A stretch of 64,000 nucleotides of DNA from Oscillospiraceae bacterium (lineage in GTDB: Bacteria > Bacillota > Clostridia > Oscillospirales > UBA929): assembly GCA_009782385.1 (NCBI GenBank), contig WRJE01000003.1, forward strand, positions 1,711 to 65,710, written 5' to 3'. The translations under genes were made by a program, and so were the position numbers. Positions 20,729 to 40,465 of the stretch are shown piece by piece. Each line of letters begins with the position of its first letter. Within the stretch, counting starts at the first letter, position 1. The notes beneath the pieces are model-generated. The model saw nothing but the letters and a program-made list of their open reading frames with translations, was not told the origin of the DNA and made no database searches.

Positions 20729-20734
20729 AACCCA

Positions 20735-20992
20735 AAGCAATGACGGAGAAAGTAAGGAACACGCGAAAGCCTCAGTGAGCCGGGGACAGTGTGAACCCGG
20801 TGTCGGTAACGTTTCCCGAAACTCACTCCCGAGCCGCGTATCGAAAAGGCTTTGCCCCAGTAGGTTACGACGGAATCCCGCCGTTACAAGGGAACCCCGG
20901 TATCGCGTAAAAGGGTGGTATAGCGAAAGCGAACGCTTTCGTCCCATGCGTAAATGTCCAAAGGGCATATATCGTTTGGGGCGATTTTATTT
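20735..20992 (+). promoter_or_regulatory. T-box riboswitch leader (tRNA-sensing transcription attenuator), specifier probably CUC (Leu)
   Basis: - Stem I elements: AATGACGGAGAAAGTA (GA/AGTA), CAGTGAG and GGACAGTGTGAACC.
- Specifier-loop-like GAAACUCACUCCCGAGCC (20818-).
- T-box core AGGGTGGTATAGCG (20912-20925), matching 12 of 14 positions of AGGGTGGTACCGCG.
- CTTTCGTCCC follows the core.
- Terminator TCGTCCCA (20939-46) / TGGGGCGA (20977-84) plus TTTTATTT. Confidence 0.75.
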
Positions 20993-35590: not shown

Positions 35591-35623
35591 GACAATGCTT
35601 TTGAAACTTTTTTCAAAAAACAT

Positions 35624-35650
35624 TAAAGTTCTATAAAAATCGTTCGATAA
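35624..35650 (+). promoter_or_regulatory. Sigma-D (sigma-28) type promoter for flagellin
   Basis: TAAA (35624-27), a 15-nt spacer, then TTCGATAA (35643-50), compared with the consensus TAAA-N15-GCCGATAA. Confidence 0.65.
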
Positions 35651-35875
35651 TTCTAGCGTGAGACAAAAACGCAAAACACCAACACCGCGAAAGTTCTCAT
35701 TCCAAGGAAGTTCCCCGGACAGAGCGCACATGATGTGCACTATGCTCAGGTTACCAACTGCTCAAAGACAAGGACGTTTTTAGCTGGTAGCAAAGATCGC
35801 ACCACTAAAAGGCAAGCATGAGGACAGGGTCCGCATGACGCGAACGCCGCTTGAAATTTGAGGAGGAGTATAACC

Positions 35876-36973
35876 ATGCGTATTCAAAACAACATCGTAG
35901 CAATGAACACCCACCGCCAGCTCGCGATTAACCAGACAAACCAAGCCAAATCAACCGAAAAACTCAGTTCGGGCTACCGCATTAACAGAGCCGCCGACGA
36001 TGCCGCGGGTCTCGCGATTTCAGAAAAAATGCGCGCTCAAGTAAGAGGATTAAACAGAGCCTCGATGAACGCACAGGACGGCATTTCAATGATTCAGGCC
36101 GCTGAAGGCGCGTTGCAAGAAGCACACTCGATTCTCCAGCGTATCCGCGAACTCTCAGTACAGGGCGCAAACGATGTAAACCAAGCGGAAGACCGCGAAG
36201 CCATTGTTAAAGAAATCAACCAGCTCGGCGTTGAGCTTGACCGCATAGCCGGTTCGACAGTGTTCAACGGAAAGTACATACTCTCCGGCATATATGACGA
36301 CCCAGAAGGTCCCACAGGCTCAGACAGCGCGTTTGCCGCACAAGAAGATGTATGGGCAATAGATGTGGCCGACCGCACTCAAATCGAAGAAGTCAAAGGC
36401 GCGCTTAATCTCCAAGTCGGCGCGAACACCATAGCCAGTGACGTTATCCAAGTCAGAATGCGCGGCGTTGGCGCGAAAGACCTTTTGAAAGACGCTTGGG
36501 TCAGTATCACCGAATACTCAAATATGCTCGACCCCCTGTCCTTCGCAAACGAAGGCTTTAACCCCGAAGATGTCAGCCCTCCCAACGATGACCTCTTTAA
36601 TCTGGGAGAGACAGTAGCTTCTGACAACGGCGAATATCTTATCACCGCTTTCCAATCCCTCATCAATGTAATTGACGGGTTAGATATAGAAACAGGGCAG
36701 CCTCTCGACCCCGATTTGCCCAAGACCGGACTTAACTTAGTCAGCGAACTGCGCTCCGAACTGGGTGCTGTCCAGAACCGCCTTGAGCATACCATAGCTA
36801 ACGTTGACACCATATCCGAGAACCTGCAAGCCGCCGAGAGCCGCATCCGTGACGTTGACATGGCGAAAGAGATGATGGCGTTTACCACGAGCAACATCTT
36901 AAACCAAGCCGCCACCGCCATGCTCGCGCAGGCGAACCAACTCCCGCAGACCGTACTATCACTGCTGAGATAA
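35876..36973 (+). CDS. fliC: Flagellin
   Basis: MRIQNNIVAMNTHRQL...SSGYRINRAADDAAGLAISEKMRAQVRGL at the N-terminus and ...NRLEHTI.N......AESRIRDVDMAKEM..FT..NIL.QA..AMLAQANQLPQ.VL.LL at the C-terminus. SD GAGGAGGAG precedes the ATG at 35876. Confidence 0.95.
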   Translation: MRIQNNIVAMNTHRQLAINQTNQAKSTEKLSSGYRINRAADDAAGLAISEKMRAQVRGLNRASMNAQDGISMIQAAEGALQEAHSILQRIRELSVQGANDVNQAEDREAIVKEINQLGVELDRIAGSTVFNGKYILSGIYDDPEGPTGSDSAFAAQEDVWAIDVADRTQIEEVKGALNLQVGANTIASDVIQVRMRGVGAKDLLKDAWVSITEYSNMLDPLSFANEGFNPEDVSPPNDDLFNLGETVASDNGEYLITAFQSLINVIDGLDIETGQPLDPDLPKTGLNLVSELRSELGAVQNRLEHTIANVDTISENLQAAESRIRDVDMAKEMMAFTTSNILNQAATAMLAQANQLPQTVLSLLR

Positions 36974-36994
36974 CAACCTCCCTAAATAAATTAC

Positions 36995-37036
36995 AAAAGA
37001 TCTCTTGTAATCCCTGCGGTTACAAGAGATTTTTGT
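36995..37036 (+). terminator. Rho-independent terminator of flagellin
   Basis: AAAAGATCTCTTGTAA-TCCCTGCGG-TTACAAGAGATTTTT. This is a 14-bp-plus stem with a T-run. Confidence 0.85.
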
Positions 37037-37076
37037 ATAATTGGTGTGGCACGCAGTGCCGAGGTGGTCGCTAATA

Positions 37077-37105
37077 TTGACAATTTCGCTAAATTATGCT
37101 ACAAT
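37077..37105 (+). promoter_or_regulatory. Strong extended -10 sigma-A promoter for the small-peptide transcript
   Basis: TTGACA (37077-82), a 17-nt spacer, then TGcTACAAT (37097-37105). Confidence 0.65.
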
Positions 37106-37191
37106 ACGCCTTGCAAGAGGGTGTCGGTGCCGTCTACGCCGCCGTTCGTACTTCCCCGCATATTATGTGTGGAGGAAGGAGGTGGTTGCCA

Positions 37192-37284
37192 ATGGGAAAT
37201 CGCGGAAAACAGGTTCTTCGTATTATCATCTGGTTGCTCATACTTATCATCACGTCCTGTTTGTACGCCCCAAACGCTTTGTAG
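37192..37284 (+). CDS. 30-aa hydrophobic peptide (candidate type I toxin, or a lipobox-bearing micropeptide)
   Basis: MGNRGKQVLRIIIWLLILIITSCLYAPNAL. A very strong SD, GGAGGAAGGAGGTGG (37171-85), lies 7 nt upstream of the ATG. The peptide is the 3' part of the 62-aa track ORF 37096..37284. Confidence 0.45.
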   Translation: MGNRGKQVLRIIIWLLILIITSCLYAPNAL

Positions 37285-37313
37285 CCGCCCTACCTTGACC
37301 GGATGGCGGCTAC
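37281..37313. terminator. Hairpin shared by the convergent peptide and antisense transcripts
   Basis: GTAGCCGCC-(15 nt)-GGCGGCTAC. The 9-bp stem begins inside the TAG stop codon, and there is no T-run. Confidence 0.45.
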
Positions 37314-37366
37314 ATAGTCGTTAAATTCGGCGGCGTGTCGGTTTCCGGCACGCTCTTGTTATATCC

Positions 37367-37395
37367 ATATTACCACAGAAGCGTACCTCTGTCAA
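37367..37395 (-). promoter_or_regulatory. Strong convergent sigma-A promoter (candidate antisense/antitoxin RNA promoter)
   Basis: The minus strand reads TTGACA (37395-37390), a 17-nt spacer, then TGgTAATAT (-10 at 37372-37367). It fires toward the peptide ORF. Confidence 0.55.
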
Positions 37396-37448
37396 CCAAA
37401 ATTTTCAAACATCATAACCCCGCCAACACTCCTTATTTTCAATCCACG

Positions 37449-37526
37449 GACAACCGAGGGCGGTCGTCCCTACAAACGGCGCGGTGGTGGTGGAACACGG
37501 GCGGATTGCCATCCGCCCTTACAAGC
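37449..37526 (-). repeat. Two TGTAGGG/TGTAAGG-hairpin family members downstream of the 37568 gene
   Basis: The plus strand reads GGACAACCGAGGGCGGTCGTCCCTACAA (37449-76) and GGGCGGATTGCCATCCGCCCTTACAAG (37500-26). On the minus strand they read TGTA(G/A)GG+hairpin after the gene stop. Confidence 0.6.
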
Positions 37527-37567
37527 AAAAACAACGCTATTTATCCACTCCTTTTATAACGAAGTGA

Positions 37568-38803
37568 CTATGACATTGCTATTTCCATTGCTGTTTCCGC
37601 CCAATGGGACAATCGCTGCGGCTGTGATTTAACCGTGCTTATATCTTTTAGTATAAATTCTAGGGGACTGCCGTTGCGGGCGCAAGCCGCCTTTATCTTT
37701 TTAAGCTCATTTATAATCGGTTCTTCGTCAAAGGAATCGAACGCCAAAAATGACGGGTTAGGTTTGCTTGAGAACACGAAACTATTCCCCAGACCCTCCG
37801 CGCCTCTCTCCGCGTCAGTCCACGGACTCATGGAAACTTTGCGGAGGTTCGGTATCTTTGTCACGATGTCCAACTTGCGGTCGAGCGGCTCGCAGCAACC
37901 GTAGTAAACAAGTCCGAAACGTTCGTATATAGGCTTTGCGTAGGACAGTTCAAATTCCTCGTGCATAGCTCCCGACACCGTTGAAAACATCTGCGCCATT
38001 CCGGCAATCCACAGGTCTTTGCAGCGCGGTTTCTCCAGATTGTATCCGGGGGCGGGGAGTTCATCGGCATACGCGCCGGTGCAGTGTATTGTCGTTTGAA
38101 GACGCGCATCGGGAAGCAGCCCCTGCTCCTCGAGCTGATCCAACATACCCGAAAACGACCGCGTCAGTTTCGCGGCAACGCGGTGCATAAACTCCGGCTC
38201 GTCTATAATCGCGTAGAGAGCGTTCTCAACGCCCTTTACCTGAGATATAAAGTCCCAAATACAAAGGAAAAACTCTTCGCCGCCGACAGGACGGACATCC
38301 AGTATTCCGCCGAAAATATTGCGAGCCTCCTCCAGTCTGCGTGAGGTATCCGCCGAATCGTGCGATATATCCGGCACGGTTATTTTTTCGATATCTTCCT
38401 CGGTTTGCAGTATATCTTTGTAACTGTGGGACATCACATCGTTTAACGGGTCTGTCGCCAGTGTTTCATCTTGAACCTTTATACCGTACCCCGTGTTGTT
38501 TATCTTTCTATTAACTTTAATGTAAGGCTCGACAACCATATCGGCGGGAAAGTGCTTCCACTTGAACAGCTGACGGCGCAGAAATTCCTCATACACACGC
38601 AGCTCGGGGTTTTCACAGCGCAGTGTCAGCAAGCCGTCATAGTTCATCTCATTCCAGCACACTTGGTCTATCATCACCATGGGACGCTGAGGATTGAGAC
38701 CGTTCAGTTTGCGCCATAGAACACGCTTCTCTTCCTGTATCGGAAGTGCCGCGATTTCTGCGGTTTCTTTTGCCAGTTCACGTAAAATTGATTTATCGGT
38801 CAT
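37568..38803 (-). CDS. Conserved hypothetical cytoplasmic protein (possibly URO-D/MtaA-like TIM-barrel family; unverified)
   Basis: 411 aa from the ATG at 38803 (SD GAGGTGA): MTDKSILRELAKE... No motif I can assign with confidence. Confidence 0.5.
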   Translation of the reverse strand: MTDKSILRELAKETAEIAALPIQEEKRVLWRKLNGLNPQRPMVMIDQVCWNEMNYDGLLTLRCENPELRVYEEFLRRQLFKWKHFPADMVVEPYIKVNRKINNTGYGIKVQDETLATDPLNDVMSHSYKDILQTEEDIEKITVPDISHDSADTSRRLEEARNIFGGILDVRPVGGEEFFLCIWDFISQVKGVENALYAIIDEPEFMHRVAAKLTRSFSGMLDQLEEQGLLPDARLQTTIHCTGAYADELPAPGYNLEKPRCKDLWIAGMAQMFSTVSGAMHEEFELSYAKPIYERFGLVYYGCCEPLDRKLDIVTKIPNLRKVSMSPWTDAERGAEGLGNSFVFSSKPNPSFLAFDSFDEEPIINELKKIKAACARNGSPLEFILKDISTVKSQPQRLSHWAETAMEIAMS

Positions 38804-38825
38804 TGTTATCACCTCGCTAATAGTT

Positions 38826-40184
38826 TTAATTTCTGAAGCTATGCACGGGCGGCGGTATTCTGCCGCCCCTGTTAATAAAATCATCACAGCCGAAACGGTT
38901 GACTTGCATTATTGGCGCACGCCCGAGAAGTCCGCCGAACAACGCTTCATCGCCAACGGTTTTCCCGTAAACGGGAATGATTCTGACCGCCGTTGTTTTG
39001 CCGTTTATCATGCCTATCGCCATTTCATCCGCGATGATGCCCGAAATCGTTGAATCGGGTGTGTCGCCCGGGATTGCGACCATATCCAGTCCAACCGAAC
39101 ATACGCAGGTCATTGCTTCGAGTTTTTCCAATGTTAAAGCTCCGCACTCGGCGGCTTCAATCATAGCGTTGTCTTCGCTAACGGGTATAAACGCGCCGCT
39201 CATTCCGCCGACATATGACGATGCCATAATACCGCCTTTTTTTACGTTGTCGTTGAGAATCGCCACGGCGGCGGTCGTGCCGGGCGCACCCGCCCGCTCA
39301 AGCCCCATCTCCTGAAGAATTTCAGCCACGCTGTCGCCCATGGCGGGTGTTGGCGCGAGCGAGAGGTCGATAATGCCGAACGGTACGCCGAGCCTTTTGG
39401 ACGCTTCTAACGCGACAAGCTGTCCAACCCTTGTTATCTTGAACGCCGTTCTTTTGACGGTTTCGCACACAGTTTCAAAGTCCGCGCCGCGTACCTGCTC
39501 CAAGCTGCGCTTTACCACGCCCGGACCGCTTACCCCAACGTTAATTACTAAATCCCGTTCACCCACTCCGTGATACGCTCCCGCCATGAACGGATTATCC
39601 TCGACAGAGTTACAAAACACTACAAATTTCGCGCAAGCTACCGAGTCTTTCTCTTTTGTGAGAAACGCCATTTCTTTGATAATCTGTCCCATGCGTTTAA
39701 CGGCGTTCATGTTTATACCGTTCTTAGTGCTGGCGGCGTTTACGGACGAGCAGACACGCTCGGTGACGCTCAAGGCCTCAGGTATGCTGTTAATAAGCAC
39801 GGTATCGCTCTGCGAGCTGCCTTTTTGCACAAGCGCGGAAAACCCTCCGATAAAGTTCACGCCCACTGTTTTAGCCGCGCTGTCAAGGGCTTCCGCAACC
39901 GGAACATAGCTGTCTGTCCGGCACGCCGAAGCCGCTATAGAGATAGGTGTTACGGAAATTCTCTTGTTCACAACCGGCACGCCGAATTGCCGCGCTATGT
40001 CATCGCCTGTTTTGACGAGATTTTCAGCGGCTTTCGTTATTTTATCGTATGCCTTGCGGCAGAACGAGTTCAAATCGGAATCGGCGCAATCTGTCAGGCT
40101 TATGCCCATTGTAATAGTCCGCACGTCAAGATTTGCCTCGTCAATCATGCGGTTCGTCTCTTGTATTTCAAAATTTGTAACCAC
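38826..40184 (-). CDS. UPF0210 (DUF711, PFL-like) family protein
   Basis: 452 aa. The N-terminus I.ETNRMI....[12 protein letters not shown] is typical of UPF0210. Paired with an upstream small ACT protein, as in other Firmicutes. Confidence 0.75.
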
Positions 40185-40195
40185 GCCTACACCCC

Positions 40196-40465
40196 CTATA
40201 TCCTGTGCATGACGTTAAAAATGTCTTCGTGCTGCAGTTTTATGACGACACCTATCTCATTACCAAGAATTTCAAGCTCCGCCGCGAGTTCCTCAAACTT
40301 TTTCTCCGCGCCGGAAAGGTCGGCAATCATCATCATGTTAAAGTATCCGCCGACTATTGTCTGCGAAATGTCAAGGATGTTTGCGCCGTTATCTGAGAGA
40401 TATACGCACACTTTGGCGATTATCCCCACACGGTCTTTGCCGATTACAGTTATAATACCTTTCAT
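40196..40465 (-). CDS. ACT domain protein (UPF0237 family)
   Basis: 89 aa: [36 protein letters not shown]. Confidence 0.8.

What the first reader, a model, noticed from the sequence alone, without database searches (positions are those of the whole stretch)
37077..37395. Convergent strong promoters flanking a 30-aa hydrophobic ORF: candidate type I toxin-antitoxin locus in the flagellin-downstream gap
The roughly 600-bp gap between the flagellin terminator and the next gene has no credible long ORF, but it is highly organised.

**Plus strand**
- Promoter TTGACA-17-TGcTACAAT at 37077-37105.
- A leader of about 80 nt.
- An unusually strong SD, GGAGGAAGGAGGTGG.
- The ORF MGNRGKQVLRIIIWLLILIITSCLYAPNAL at 37192-37284: a basic N-terminus, one TM helix and a short polar tail.
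- A 9-bp hairpin (37281-37313) that begins inside the stop codon.

**Minus strand**
- An equally good promoter, TTGACA-17-TGgTAATAT (37395-37367), fires toward the ORF.
- Its transcript would run into the same hairpin, and if it reads through it would be fully antisense to the peptide mRNA.
- I find no ORF with an SD on this antisense transcript.

This layout matches the txpA/RatA and bsrG/SR4-type type I TA architecture: convergent transcripts overlapping at their 3' ends. The leader also contains CTTCC (37151-55), which could pair with the SD.

An alternative reading is that IITSC fits a lipobox ([LVI][ASTVI][GAS]C). That would leave an 8-residue lipidated mature peptide, which would be odd in itself.
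Basis: partly seen in the sequence, partly recalled or inferred. Interest (0 to 1): 0.7.

Follow-up and report, generated by a model that had tools for sequence, protein, structure and literature searches.

The report
Candidate type I toxin-antitoxin cassette
A self-contained ~320-bp cassette downstream of a flagellin gene encodes a 30-residue membrane peptide on a tightly folded mRNA, faced by a promoter for a convergent antisense RNA; two conserved copies in other genomic contexts suggest an unannotated family of type I toxin-antitoxin modules, though toxicity is untested.

Summary

I found two homologous cassettes in a JGI metagenome (L084, L085), in unrelated genomic contexts. Both keep:
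- the two promoters
- a nearly invariant leader
- the SD
- a 30-codon ORF
- the hairpin
- the 3' element

The ORF diverges to 57% nucleotide identity. It still keeps its length, basic N-terminus, 15-residue hydrophobic core and YAP(K/N)A tail.

[quoted passage not shown] It is conserved and strand-specific through G-U pairs. The predicted ~90-nt antisense RNA covers exactly this 3' arm, and its 5' end resembles the mRNA's own 5' arm. An anti-SD stem and an AUG-sequestering stem show compensatory changes.

L084 carries an adjacent second cassette of the same design with an unrelated hydrophobic peptide.

There is no match in Rfam, Pfam, NCBIfam, PADLOC or PHROGs, and no homologue among billions of predicted proteins.

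Best reading: a new type I TA family, with a 3'-overlapping antitoxin as in txpA/RatA and bsrG/SR4 and a fold-back mRNA as in hok and AapA1. The lipobox, MITE and invertible-element readings are not supported. Toxicity and transcription remain untested.

The parts
37077..37105 (+). Promoter of the peptide mRNA: TTGACA-17-TACAAT with an extended -10 TG. Predicted TSS is about 37112-37113.
   Evidence: Both hexamers are identical in L084 cassette B (TTGACA-17-TACAAT). L085 has TTGCGC-17-TAAAAT with TG.
37113..37144 (+). 5' arm of the long-distance 5'-3' helix of the + RNA.
   Evidence: I1; MFE; duplex -52.6 vs shuffles -22.0 +/- 3.9., helix 1: 28 pairs, 98.8% of cells paired across 3 loci. The arm differs at 1 of 32 positions across the three loci.
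37151..37178 (+). Anti-SD hairpin: CUUCCCCGC (37151-37159) pairs with the first half of the SD, GYGGAGGAAG (37169-37178).
   Evidence: helix 2: 9 pairs, 100% paired, one C-G to U-A double change in L085.
37171..37185 (+). Shine-Dalgarno GGAGGAAGGAGGTGG. GAAGGAGGTG is invariant in all three loci, about 9 nt upstream of the ATG.
37192..37284 (+). 30-codon ORF MGNRGKQVLRIIIWLLILIITSCLYAPNAL: basic N-terminus, one 15-residue hydrophobic segment, YAPNAL tail. Candidate toxin.
   Evidence: Homologues are MENRGKQVLRIIIWLLILIIMSCVYAPKAL (L084:623-715) and MGKRFMRVMRFIICLMITFAICLIYAPKAM (L085:1368-1460); 39/90 nt differences, distributed 11/8/20 by codon position; hydropathy r = 0.76; simulation P = 0.00065. 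In the consensus fold the AUG pairs with codons 12-13 (helix 4).
37275..37317 (.). Palindromic hairpin starting in the stop codon; core stem 37280-37289 / 37305-37314. It lies inside the sense/antisense overlap. On the - strand it is followed by AAAGCGUUUGG, the likely terminator of the antisense RNA.
   Evidence: I4., helix 6, with a C-G to U-A double change in L084; the - RNA consensus has UUUU after the stem in L084 and L085, UUU in the window.
37328..37359 (+). 3' arm of the long-distance helix. It includes a local terminator-like hairpin (37332-37354) followed by CTTGTTATAT. The same DNA encodes the 5' stem-loop of the antisense RNA.
37270..37360 (-). Predicted antisense RNA (candidate antitoxin), about 90 nt, two stem-loops, no SD-preceded ORF. 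It is fully complementary to the last ~5 codons and the whole 3' UTR of the peptide mRNA.
   Evidence: conserved two-hairpin fold; antisense:3'-arm duplex -76 to -77.5 kcal/mol, against -48 to -53 for the intramolecular 5'-3' helix. The ends are inferred from promoter and terminator positions, not measured.
37367..37395 (-). Promoter of the antisense RNA: TTGACA-17-TAATAT with TG. Predicted TSS is about 37360.
   Evidence: Conserved in L084 (831-802, TTGACA-18-TAATAT, TG) and L085 (1572-1545, TTGACA-16-TATGCT, TG).

Best explanation
The cassette at about 37077-37395 is an autonomous type I toxin-antitoxin-like module of a previously unannotated family.

**What the sequence and tools show**
- The + promoter makes a ~250-nt mRNA whose 5' end (37113-37144) pairs with its 3' end (37328-37359).
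- The SD is half-buried by a conserved CUUCC stem, and the AUG is paired.
- The mRNA encodes a 30-aa single-TM peptide.
- A conserved convergent promoter would make a ~90-nt antisense RNA complementary to the mRNA's last ~90 nt, which include the 3' arm of the fold-back.
- The antisense RNA's 5' end resembles the mRNA's own 5' arm.

**What is inferred**
- The fold-back keeps the mRNA compact, stable and poorly translated.
- The antisense RNA docks through the complementary hairpin loops and displaces the weaker intramolecular helix. This gives a ~90-bp perfect duplex that is cut by RNase III and then degraded, as for txpA/RatA and bsrG/SR4.
- When the antisense RNA falls, the stable mRNA is translated and the peptide inserts into the membrane and arrests or kills the cell.
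For: **Anatomy**
- The anatomy is confirmed.

**RNA folding**
- The + RNA folds far better than shuffles: -111.5 kcal/mol, z -6.7. The complementary strand gives -90.7, z -4.0.
- The 5'-3' duplex (-52.6) is the best partner for the 5' arm in the whole window. It beats all 2000 shuffles.
- In all three loci the duplex is 12-16 kcal/mol stronger on the + strand, because substitutions are G-U-compatible only there.

**Homologous loci**
- Two homologous loci lie in other contexts (nhmmer E about 1e-117 to 1e-130).
- The leader is 91% conserved, while the ORF is only 57% identical between the window and L085.
- In the consensus structure 96.4% of cells are paired, against 33-50% in slid controls. 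Eight pairs carry double changes. In 0 of 500 shuffles was the observed value reached for percentage paired, number of double changes and covariation score; it was reached in 3 of 500 for further pair types.

**Peptide**
- Third-position changes are enriched (11/8/20).
- Random mutation at the same divergence keeps an open frame and an equally hydrophobic core in 0.065% of trials.

**Antisense side**
- The antisense promoter and the two-hairpin antisense fold are conserved.

**Neighbouring cassette**
- L084 carries an adjacent cassette of identical design with an unrelated 28-aa hydrophobic peptide ending in KKRDDK.

**Literature**
- 3'-overlapping antitoxins that promote RNase III decay: PMC4147584, PMC3834814, PMC3531473.
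- 5'-3' fold-back toxin mRNAs: AapA1 is 30 aa on a 253-nt mRNA (PMC5416894).
Against: - There are no expression or toxicity data of any kind.
- Only three distinct loci are known, two of them from one metagenome. The closest pair differs by 4 non-synonymous changes and 1 synonymous change.
- The peptide lacks the charged C-terminal tail common in Gram-positive type I toxins (PMC6563280). Its charges are N-terminal.
- The antisense terminator has a weak U-tract in the window (UUU).
- Predicted SD accessibility does not rise when the 3' arm is removed (0.29 full length, 0.13-0.17 truncated). Fold-back-controlled translation as in hok or AapA1 is therefore not supported by folding alone.
- There is no sequence homology to any known toxin or antitoxin family.
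Confidence: 0.65

Rival explanations
1. This is a non-toxic small membrane protein gene under cis-antisense and mRNA-structure control. The peptide would modulate some membrane process, and the antisense RNA would simply tune its level. There would be no addiction or toxin function.
For: All the RNA and ORF conservation evidence fits this reading equally well. The peptide lacks a charged C-terminal tail. The SD is unusually strong, which suits a protein meant to be made.
Against: The module stands alone in three unrelated contexts, so it has no conserved partner gene. In L084 it sits in tandem with another cassette of the same design that carries an unrelated hydrophobic peptide. Heavy occlusion of both SD and AUG plus a dedicated antisense RNA is the hallmark of genes whose product must normally not be made (PMC5416894, PMC3834814).
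Confidence: 0.2
2. This is a pair of non-coding structured RNAs, such as a convergent sRNA pair or transcription-interference switch. The 30-codon ORF would be incidental.
For: The RNA elements (leader, arms, hairpins) are much better conserved than the ORF. A stop-free 30-codon frame survives in about 34% of random-mutation trials. No gene caller predicted this ORF in any database.
Against: The SD GAAGGAGGTG is invariant at fixed spacing from the ATG. The hydrophobic core and basic N-terminus are kept through 39 nucleotide changes (P = 0.00065), with excess third-position change. The other frames are not conserved and contain stops in L085.
Confidence: 0.07
3. This is a secreted or lipidated peptide. 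The ORF would be a lipoprotein signal peptide (lipobox IITSC) that releases a 7-8-residue lipopeptide, or a RiPP or pheromone precursor.
For: The window peptide matches [LVI][ASTVI][GAS]C, and the Cys region and the YAP(K/N)A tail are conserved.
Against: The lipobox is not conserved. L084 has I-M-S-C, and L085 has F-A-I-C with the Cys shifted by one residue. No maturation or export genes are shared among the three contexts. The conservation of the tail codons is also explained by the antisense terminator U-tract encoded on the opposite strand.
Confidence: 0.04
4. This is a DNA-level element. The 31-nt inverted repeats would be the ends of a MITE or the recombination sites of an invertible segment.
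For: Imperfect inverted repeats flank the ORF symmetrically. Each arm begins about 7-8 nt after a -10 box. The locus lies next to a flagellin gene, a classic setting for invertible switches.
Against: Substitutions in the arms keep pairing only in the + strand RNA. They are G-U there and A-C on the other strand, and this holds in all three loci. Conservation extends beyond the repeats to both promoters. All four assemblies have the same orientation, and inversion would not change which strand is transcribed. The homologues are not near flagellin genes.
Confidence: 0.03

Closest known systems
txpA/RatA and bsrG/SR4 (also bsrE/SR5, yonT/SR6) type I TA systems of Bacillus subtilis
   Same: Convergent promoters. 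The antisense RNA overlaps the 3' end of the toxin mRNA, not the ribosome-binding site. The toxin is a small single-TM peptide. The SD is partly sequestered by an intramolecular stem. Expected action is through duplex formation and RNase III-initiated decay (PMC4147584, PMC3834814, PMC3531473).
   Different: No sequence similarity of peptide or RNA. The peptide is shorter (30 aa against 38-59) and its charges are N-terminal. The overlap here coincides with one arm of a 28-bp 5'-3' fold-back helix. There is no evidence of a prophage location.
aapA1/IsoA1 (Helicobacter pylori) and hok/Sok (plasmid R1)
   Same: The toxin mRNA is locked by a long-distance interaction between its 5' and 3' ends. 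AapA1 is also 30 aa, on a 253-nt mRNA (PMC5416894). The mRNA is highly structured, with an occluded SD.
   Different: In those systems the antitoxin pairs with the 5' UTR or translation initiation region, and 3' processing activates the mRNA. Here the antisense promoter sits at the 3' end and targets the 3' arm itself. The SD is masked by a local stem, not by the fold-back. The phylum is different and there is no homology.
par (fst / RNA I-RNA II) of Enterococcus faecalis pAD1 and the Fst/Ldr family
   Same: Convergent promoters about 300 bp apart. Complementary stem-loops lie in the 3' overlap. The toxin is about 30 aa. Intramolecular helices sequester the SD and the 5' end of the toxin mRNA (PMC7472228).
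   Different: There are no DRa/DRb-type direct repeats giving a second complementarity to the initiation region. The flanking repeats here are inverted, so the two RNAs have similar 5' ends, not complementary ones. There is no PXXXG motif or charged C-terminal tail, and no Pfam or NCBIfam hit.
Clostridioides difficile type I TA modules (CD2517.1/RCd8 and related)
   Same: Clostridia host class. Small hydrophobic toxin with a cis-antisense RNA (PMC6563280, PMC5961336).
   Different: The C. difficile toxins are 34-59 aa with charged C-termini, and many lie in prophages or next to CRISPR arrays. There is no sequence similarity.

Membership tests
Type I toxin-antitoxin system (class) | Small (<60 aa) hydrophobic, membrane-spanning peptide ORF with its own SD | tested here: met
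   30 aa. Residues 11-25 have mean Kyte-Doolittle 2.7-2.9 in all three homologues. The SD GAAGGAGGTG is invariant.
Type I toxin-antitoxin system (class) | A non-coding antisense RNA gene whose transcript is complementary to the toxin mRNA | tested here: inconclusive
   A conserved convergent TG-extended promoter and a conserved two-hairpin fold are predicted. No SD-preceded ORF is present. Transcription itself cannot be shown with these tools.
Type I toxin-antitoxin system (class) | The peptide is toxic on overexpression and is neutralised by the RNA | not testable with these tools
   This needs an experiment.
Type I toxin-antitoxin system (class) | Highly structured toxin mRNA with an occluded translation start | tested here: met
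   Fold z -6.7. The anti-SD and AUG-sequestering helices are conserved, with double changes. SD unpaired probability is 0.13-0.29.
TxpA/BsrG-type loci (B. subtilis) | Antitoxin overlaps the 3' end of the toxin mRNA | tested here: met
   The predicted - TSS (~37360) coincides with the predicted + RNA 3' end. The overlap is about 90 nt.
TxpA/BsrG-type loci (B. subtilis) | Sequence homology of the toxin to the family | tested here: not met
   No Pfam, NCBIfam, PADLOC or PHROG family at E<=10, apart from one sub-threshold DUF5433 hit for the L084 peptide. No homologue in 1.84e9 representatives or 5.8e9 clusters.
hok/Sok and aapA/IsoA | Long-distance 5'-3' interaction in the full-length toxin mRNA | tested here: met
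   A 28-bp helix, -48 to -53 kcal/mol, conserved and strand-specific.
hok/Sok and aapA/IsoA | Antitoxin complementary to the 5' UTR or translation initiation region | tested here: not met
   The antisense promoter lies at the 3' end. There is no significant complementarity to the 5' part.
hok/Sok and aapA/IsoA | Activation by 3' processing that opens the SD | tested here: inconclusive
   In silico 3' truncation does not increase SD accessibility. Processing itself cannot be tested here.
Fst/par family | Direct repeats (DRa/DRb) giving antitoxin complementarity to the toxin initiation region; PXXXG motif and charged C-terminal tail | tested here: not met
   No such direct repeats. The best trans duplex is no better than shuffles. 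The peptide sequence lacks the motif and the tail.
Bacterial lipoprotein signal peptide | Conserved lipobox [LVI][ASTVI][GAS]C followed by a mature protein | tested here: not met
   Window ITSC fits. L084 IMSC and L085 FAIC (Cys shifted) do not. The mature part would be 7-8 residues.
Any Rfam RNA family | Covariance-model score at or above the gathering threshold | tested here: not met
   Nothing in the region at gathering threshold. The best sub-threshold hits have E 0.05-6.7 and are unrelated families.
MITE / invertible DNA segment | Terminal inverted repeats that act at the DNA level, so are symmetric on both strands; alternative orientations or target-site duplications | tested here: not met
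   The repeat pairs 12-16 kcal/mol better as + strand RNA in all three loci. A single orientation is seen in four assemblies. Conservation extends outside the repeats.

The most novel reading that the evidence does not exclude
The antisense RNA is a molecular mimic of the toxin mRNA's own 5' arm. It would act by displacing a hok/AapA1-type 5'-3' fold-back from the 3' side. As far as I know, an antitoxin that targets the lock itself, and not the ribosome-binding site, has not been described for type I TA systems. Depending on what the freed 5' arm does, the antisense RNA could trigger decay or could even license translation.

These modules also appear to be organised as interchangeable cassettes. 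In L084 a shared unit (terminator, REP-like hairpin, promoter) precedes each of two unrelated toxin ORFs. This hints at arrays of diversifying small-toxin cassettes in uncultured Oscillospiraceae.
Probability: 0.25. Interest if true: 0.65.

Novelty: new member of a known kind. Interest (0 to 1): 0.5.

Why it matters
Type I TA systems are hard to find by homology. They are essentially unexplored in uncultured gut Clostridia such as Oscillospiraceae.

This locus defines a family invisible to every protein and RNA library tested. No gene caller predicted the peptide. The family comes with a clear structural signature that can be searched for:
- convergent TG-extended promoters
- a conserved 5'-3' helix
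- an anti-SD stem
- a hairpin at the stop codon

The locus combines two regulatory designs that I found described only separately in the papers read: a fold-back-locked mRNA (hok, AapA1) and a 3'-overlapping antitoxin (txpA, bsrG). The antitoxin is aimed at the lock itself. That makes a specific mechanistic hypothesis directly testable.

In practical terms, the 594-bp "empty" gap after the flagellin gene is not empty, and the flagellin adjacency has no functional meaning.

Tried and rejected
- **Synteny through neighbours.** A genome-contig scan with the downstream 412-aa protein returned 80 loci. The best is 68% identical, they are scattered over many phyla, and none has the element. Contigs of the closest flagellin relatives (66-73% identity; L082, L083, L087-L090) have different neighbours and no element.
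- **Peptide homology.** An exact look-up found nothing. phmmer against 1.84e9 representatives gave one spurious repetitive 755-aa hit. Word-indexed searches with the peptide and with the three-member alignment found nothing. These used tandem duplicates to satisfy the 40-aa minimum.
- **Family libraries.** Pfam, NCBIfam, PADLOC and PHROGs gave nothing for this family. Rfam gave nothing.
- **DNA similarity.** Plasmids gave one chance 44-nt match in a Rhodococcus oxidoreductase gene, and phages gave none.
- **Viral contig scans.** Three conserved patterns gave one hit (L086), which lies inside a high-GC phage capsid gene and is spurious.
- **More copies in held DNA.** nhmmer over all held DNA found none.
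- **par-like second complementarity.** The antisense RNA's best duplex with the initiation region is no better than shuffles.
- **Sibling modules in the window.** The other strong TG-extended promoters inspected (20700, 56435, 58292) belong to a T-box leader and ordinary genes.
- **Rejected readings.** The lipobox, MITE and invertible-switch readings, and any functional link to flagellin.
Full report
**1. The observation**

The window is a contig of an uncultured Oscillospiraceae bacterium. Its flagellin is 100% identical to an NCBI/ENA MAG protein. The flagellin gene ends at 36973 and is followed by a hairpin with a T-run (36996-37034). The next gene, on the minus strand, ends at 37568.

- + promoter TTGACA-17-TACAAT with an extended -10 TG (37077-37105, 11/12)
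- convergent - promoter TTGACA-17-TAATAT with TG (37395-37367, 10/12)
- a double SD, GGAGGAAGGAGGTGG (37171-37185)
- the ORF MGNRGKQVLRIIIWLLILIITSCLYAPNAL (37192-37284)
- a 10-13-bp hairpin that begins in the stop codon (37277-37317)

Only eight TG-extended sites of >=10/12 exist on both strands of the 64-kb window. It found only this locus, its duplicate assembly and two cassettes in a homologous contig. An independent ENA assembly of the same species (L081) is 99.6% identical over 4.5 kb. It has 18 SNPs, none of them in the 598-bp query spanning the gap, and no gene was called there.

**2.

The + transcript's 5' end (37113-37144) is complementary to its 3' end (37328-37359), as an imperfect 31-nt inverted repeat. 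Each arm starts about 7-8 nt after a -10 box, so the locus is mirror-symmetric.

Folding results:
- The 254-nt + RNA folds to -111.5 kcal/mol (z = -6.7), with the two ends paired.
- The complementary strand reaches only -90.7 (z = -4.0).
- The arm-arm duplex is -52.6 kcal/mol, against -22.0 +/- 3.9 for shuffles (best of 2000: -40.3).
- It is the best partner for the 5' arm anywhere in the window.

The 3' arm also forms a local terminator-like hairpin (37332-37354, followed by CTTGTTATAT). The predicted - TSS (~37360) falls exactly at this 3' end. The antisense RNA is therefore complementary to the 3' arm, and its own 5' 32 nt resemble the mRNA's 5' arm.

**3. Relatives**

*Searches that found nothing*
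- The peptide is in no protein collection.
- It matches no Pfam, NCBIfam, PADLOC or PHROG family.
- The RNA matches no Rfam family.
- Synteny-based searches failed. The downstream gene is horizontally scattered, and flagellin relatives at 66-73% identity have other neighbours.

*The two homologous cassettes*
- A metagenome scan with the in-frame 62-aa translation found two cassettes in JGI metagenome Ga0082212: L084:510-835 and L085:1240-1575.
- Their flanks are unrelated to the window and to each other. L085 lies between an oxidoreductase-like gene and a small lipoprotein/SOD pair. L084 lies among REP-like repeats.
- Flagellin adjacency is therefore incidental, and the cassette is an autonomous unit.

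*Alignment*
- Both promoters are kept.
- The leader is 91% identical, and the 5' arm differs at 1 of 32 positions.
- GAAGGAGGTG is invariant.
- The ORF has 30 codons in every locus.
- The TGTAGCCG...CGGCTACA hairpin and the 3' arm are kept.

**4. Coding evidence**

The window and L085 ORFs differ at 39 of 90 nucleotides, distributed 11/8/20 over codon positions. Only 13 of 30 residues are identical. Both peptides nevertheless have 3-4 net positive charges in residues 1-10, a 15-residue core of mean hydropathy 2.7-2.8, and Y-A-P-(N/K)-A-(L/M) at the end. Their hydropathy profiles correlate at r = 0.76.

Random mutation of the window ORF to the same divergence keeps an open frame and an equally hydrophobic core in 0.065% of trials. 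The other frames are not conserved.

The closest pair (window and L084) differs by four conservative non-synonymous changes and one synonymous change. That is too few to interpret. The tail codons may be doubly constrained, because their complement supplies the U-tract after the antisense RNA's terminator hairpin.

**5. RNA structure evidence**

The RNAalifold consensus of the three + RNAs, counted with controls, has 75 pairs:
- 96.4% of cells are paired, against 33-50% when partners are slid by 1-3 columns.
- Eight pairs have changes on both sides.
- In 0 of 500 shuffles was the observed value reached for percentage paired, pairs with double changes and covariation score. It was reached in 3 of 500 for further pair types.

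| Helix | What it is | Result |
|---|---|---|
| 1 | 5'-3' lock, 28 pairs | 98.8% paired; the only changes are G-U/G-C/U-A switches |
| 2 | anti-SD stem | C-G to U-A double change |
| 4 | pairs the AUG with codons 12-13 | two double changes |
| 6 | stop-codon hairpin | double changes |

With three sequences this is suggestive, not statistically rigorous.

The strand asymmetry is the more telling result. In all three loci the lock is 12-16 kcal/mol stronger as + RNA than as - RNA. That argues for a + transcript structure and against a DNA-level inverted repeat.

**6. The antisense side**

The - RNA consensus has two hairpins followed by AUGCUUUUGG in the homologues and AAGCGUUUGG in the window. 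This predicts a product of about 90 nt (37360 to about 37270) with no SD-preceded ORF.

Its duplex with the mRNA 3' arm is -76 to -77.5 kcal/mol, so it should outcompete the intramolecular lock. It has no significant second complementarity to the initiation region.

**7. Corroboration by a sibling cassette**

L084 carries a second module immediately upstream (135-422). It has the same kind of convergent TG-extended promoters, its own 5'-3' pairing and anti-SD stem (fold z = -8.7), and two terminator-like hairpins. Its peptide is unrelated: the 28-aa MITYSELFQLFLVIIAVITLCLKKRDDK, hydrophobic with a charged C-terminus. That is the pattern typical of Gram-positive type I toxins (PMC6563280). It gives a weak PHROG holin hit (E = 0.031).

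Both L084 modules are preceded by the same unit of terminator, REP-like hairpin and promoter.

**8. Mechanism**

*Shown by sequence and tools*
- the parts listed above
- their conservation
- the occlusion of SD and AUG
- the 5'-3' lock
- the perfect complementarity of the predicted antisense RNA to the lock's 3' arm

*Inferred by analogy*
- From txpA/RatA and bsrG/SR4 (PMC4147584, PMC3834814, PMC3531473): the antisense RNA binds through the complementary hairpins, opens the lock and creates a long duplex for RNase III, so the mRNA is degraded.
- From hok and AapA1 (PMC5416894): the lock makes the mRNA compact and long-lived.
- In silico, removing the 3' arm does not open the SD. I therefore assign the lock to stability or antisense targeting, not to translational control. 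This point is open.

**9. Comparison and novelty**

The layout is that of the Bacillus 3'-overlap type I systems. The fold-back is that of hok and AapA1, where AapA1 is also 30 aa on a 253-nt mRNA. The convergent promoters with complementary hairpins recall par/Fst (PMC7472228).

Membership in each of those families fails on sequence homology. It also fails on one architectural feature per family: the antitoxin target site for hok and AapA, and the direct repeats for par.

I file the locus as a new family within a known kind. The rival readings, with my confidence in each, are:
- non-toxic regulated small protein, 0.2
- non-coding RNA pair, 0.07
- lipopeptide, 0.04
- DNA element, 0.03

**10. 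Verdict**

Comparative evidence and a newly recognised 5'-3' lock targeted by the antisense RNA strengthen it.

It remains a computational candidate. I put confidence in the type I TA reading at 0.65 and interest at 0.5.

Noticed in passing
L084:135-422: A second, unrelated cassette of the same design. It has convergent TG-extended promoters, 5'-3' pairing, an anti-SD stem and a 28-aa peptide (MITYSELFQLFLVIIAVITLCLKKRDDK). Fold z is -8.7 and there is a weak PHROG holin hit (E 0.031). Each L084 cassette is preceded by the same ~65-nt unit of terminator, REP-like hairpin and promoter (75-140, 450-515, partly 1017-1040). This suggests an array of interchangeable small-toxin cassettes.
   Followed up: partly
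window 13340(-), 29934(+), 35588(-), 37452-37475(-), 37499-37527(-), 41388(-), 52926(-): A family of REP-like intergenic repeats: YGTAGGG or GTAAGG followed by a GC-rich hairpin. Two copies lie in the same gap, between the antisense promoter and the next gene. Many more occur in L084 and one in L083. Their function is unknown.
   Followed up: partly
window 20731-20949 (+): A T-box leader behind a strong TG-extended promoter (20700). It scores 72.3 bits (E 5.8e-16), below Rfam's gathering score of 93, so the default Rfam scan of the window misses it.
   Followed up: yes
window 37568-38806 (-): The ~411-aa gene downstream of the cassette has no Pfam or NCBIfam family. It has 50-68% identical homologues in many phyla, including Armatimonadota, Planctomycetota, Chloroflexota, Lentisphaerota, Spirochaetota and Hydrogenedentota. 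It is a widespread, apparently horizontally spread protein of unknown function.
   Followed up: no
L081 (ENA ERZ27257320 contig k141_1788133) vs window 35598-40134: An independent assembly of the same species is 99.6% identical, with 18 SNPs in 4537 bp. None falls in the 598-bp query spanning the gap, where about 2.4 would be expected. This is mild, non-significant evidence of constraint.
   Followed up: yes
window 38826-40465 (-): The neighbouring genes are a PRK05313-family (UPF0210-like) protein of 452 aa and a PRK00194 ACT-domain protein of 89 aa, a commonly paired duo of unknown function.
   Followed up: no
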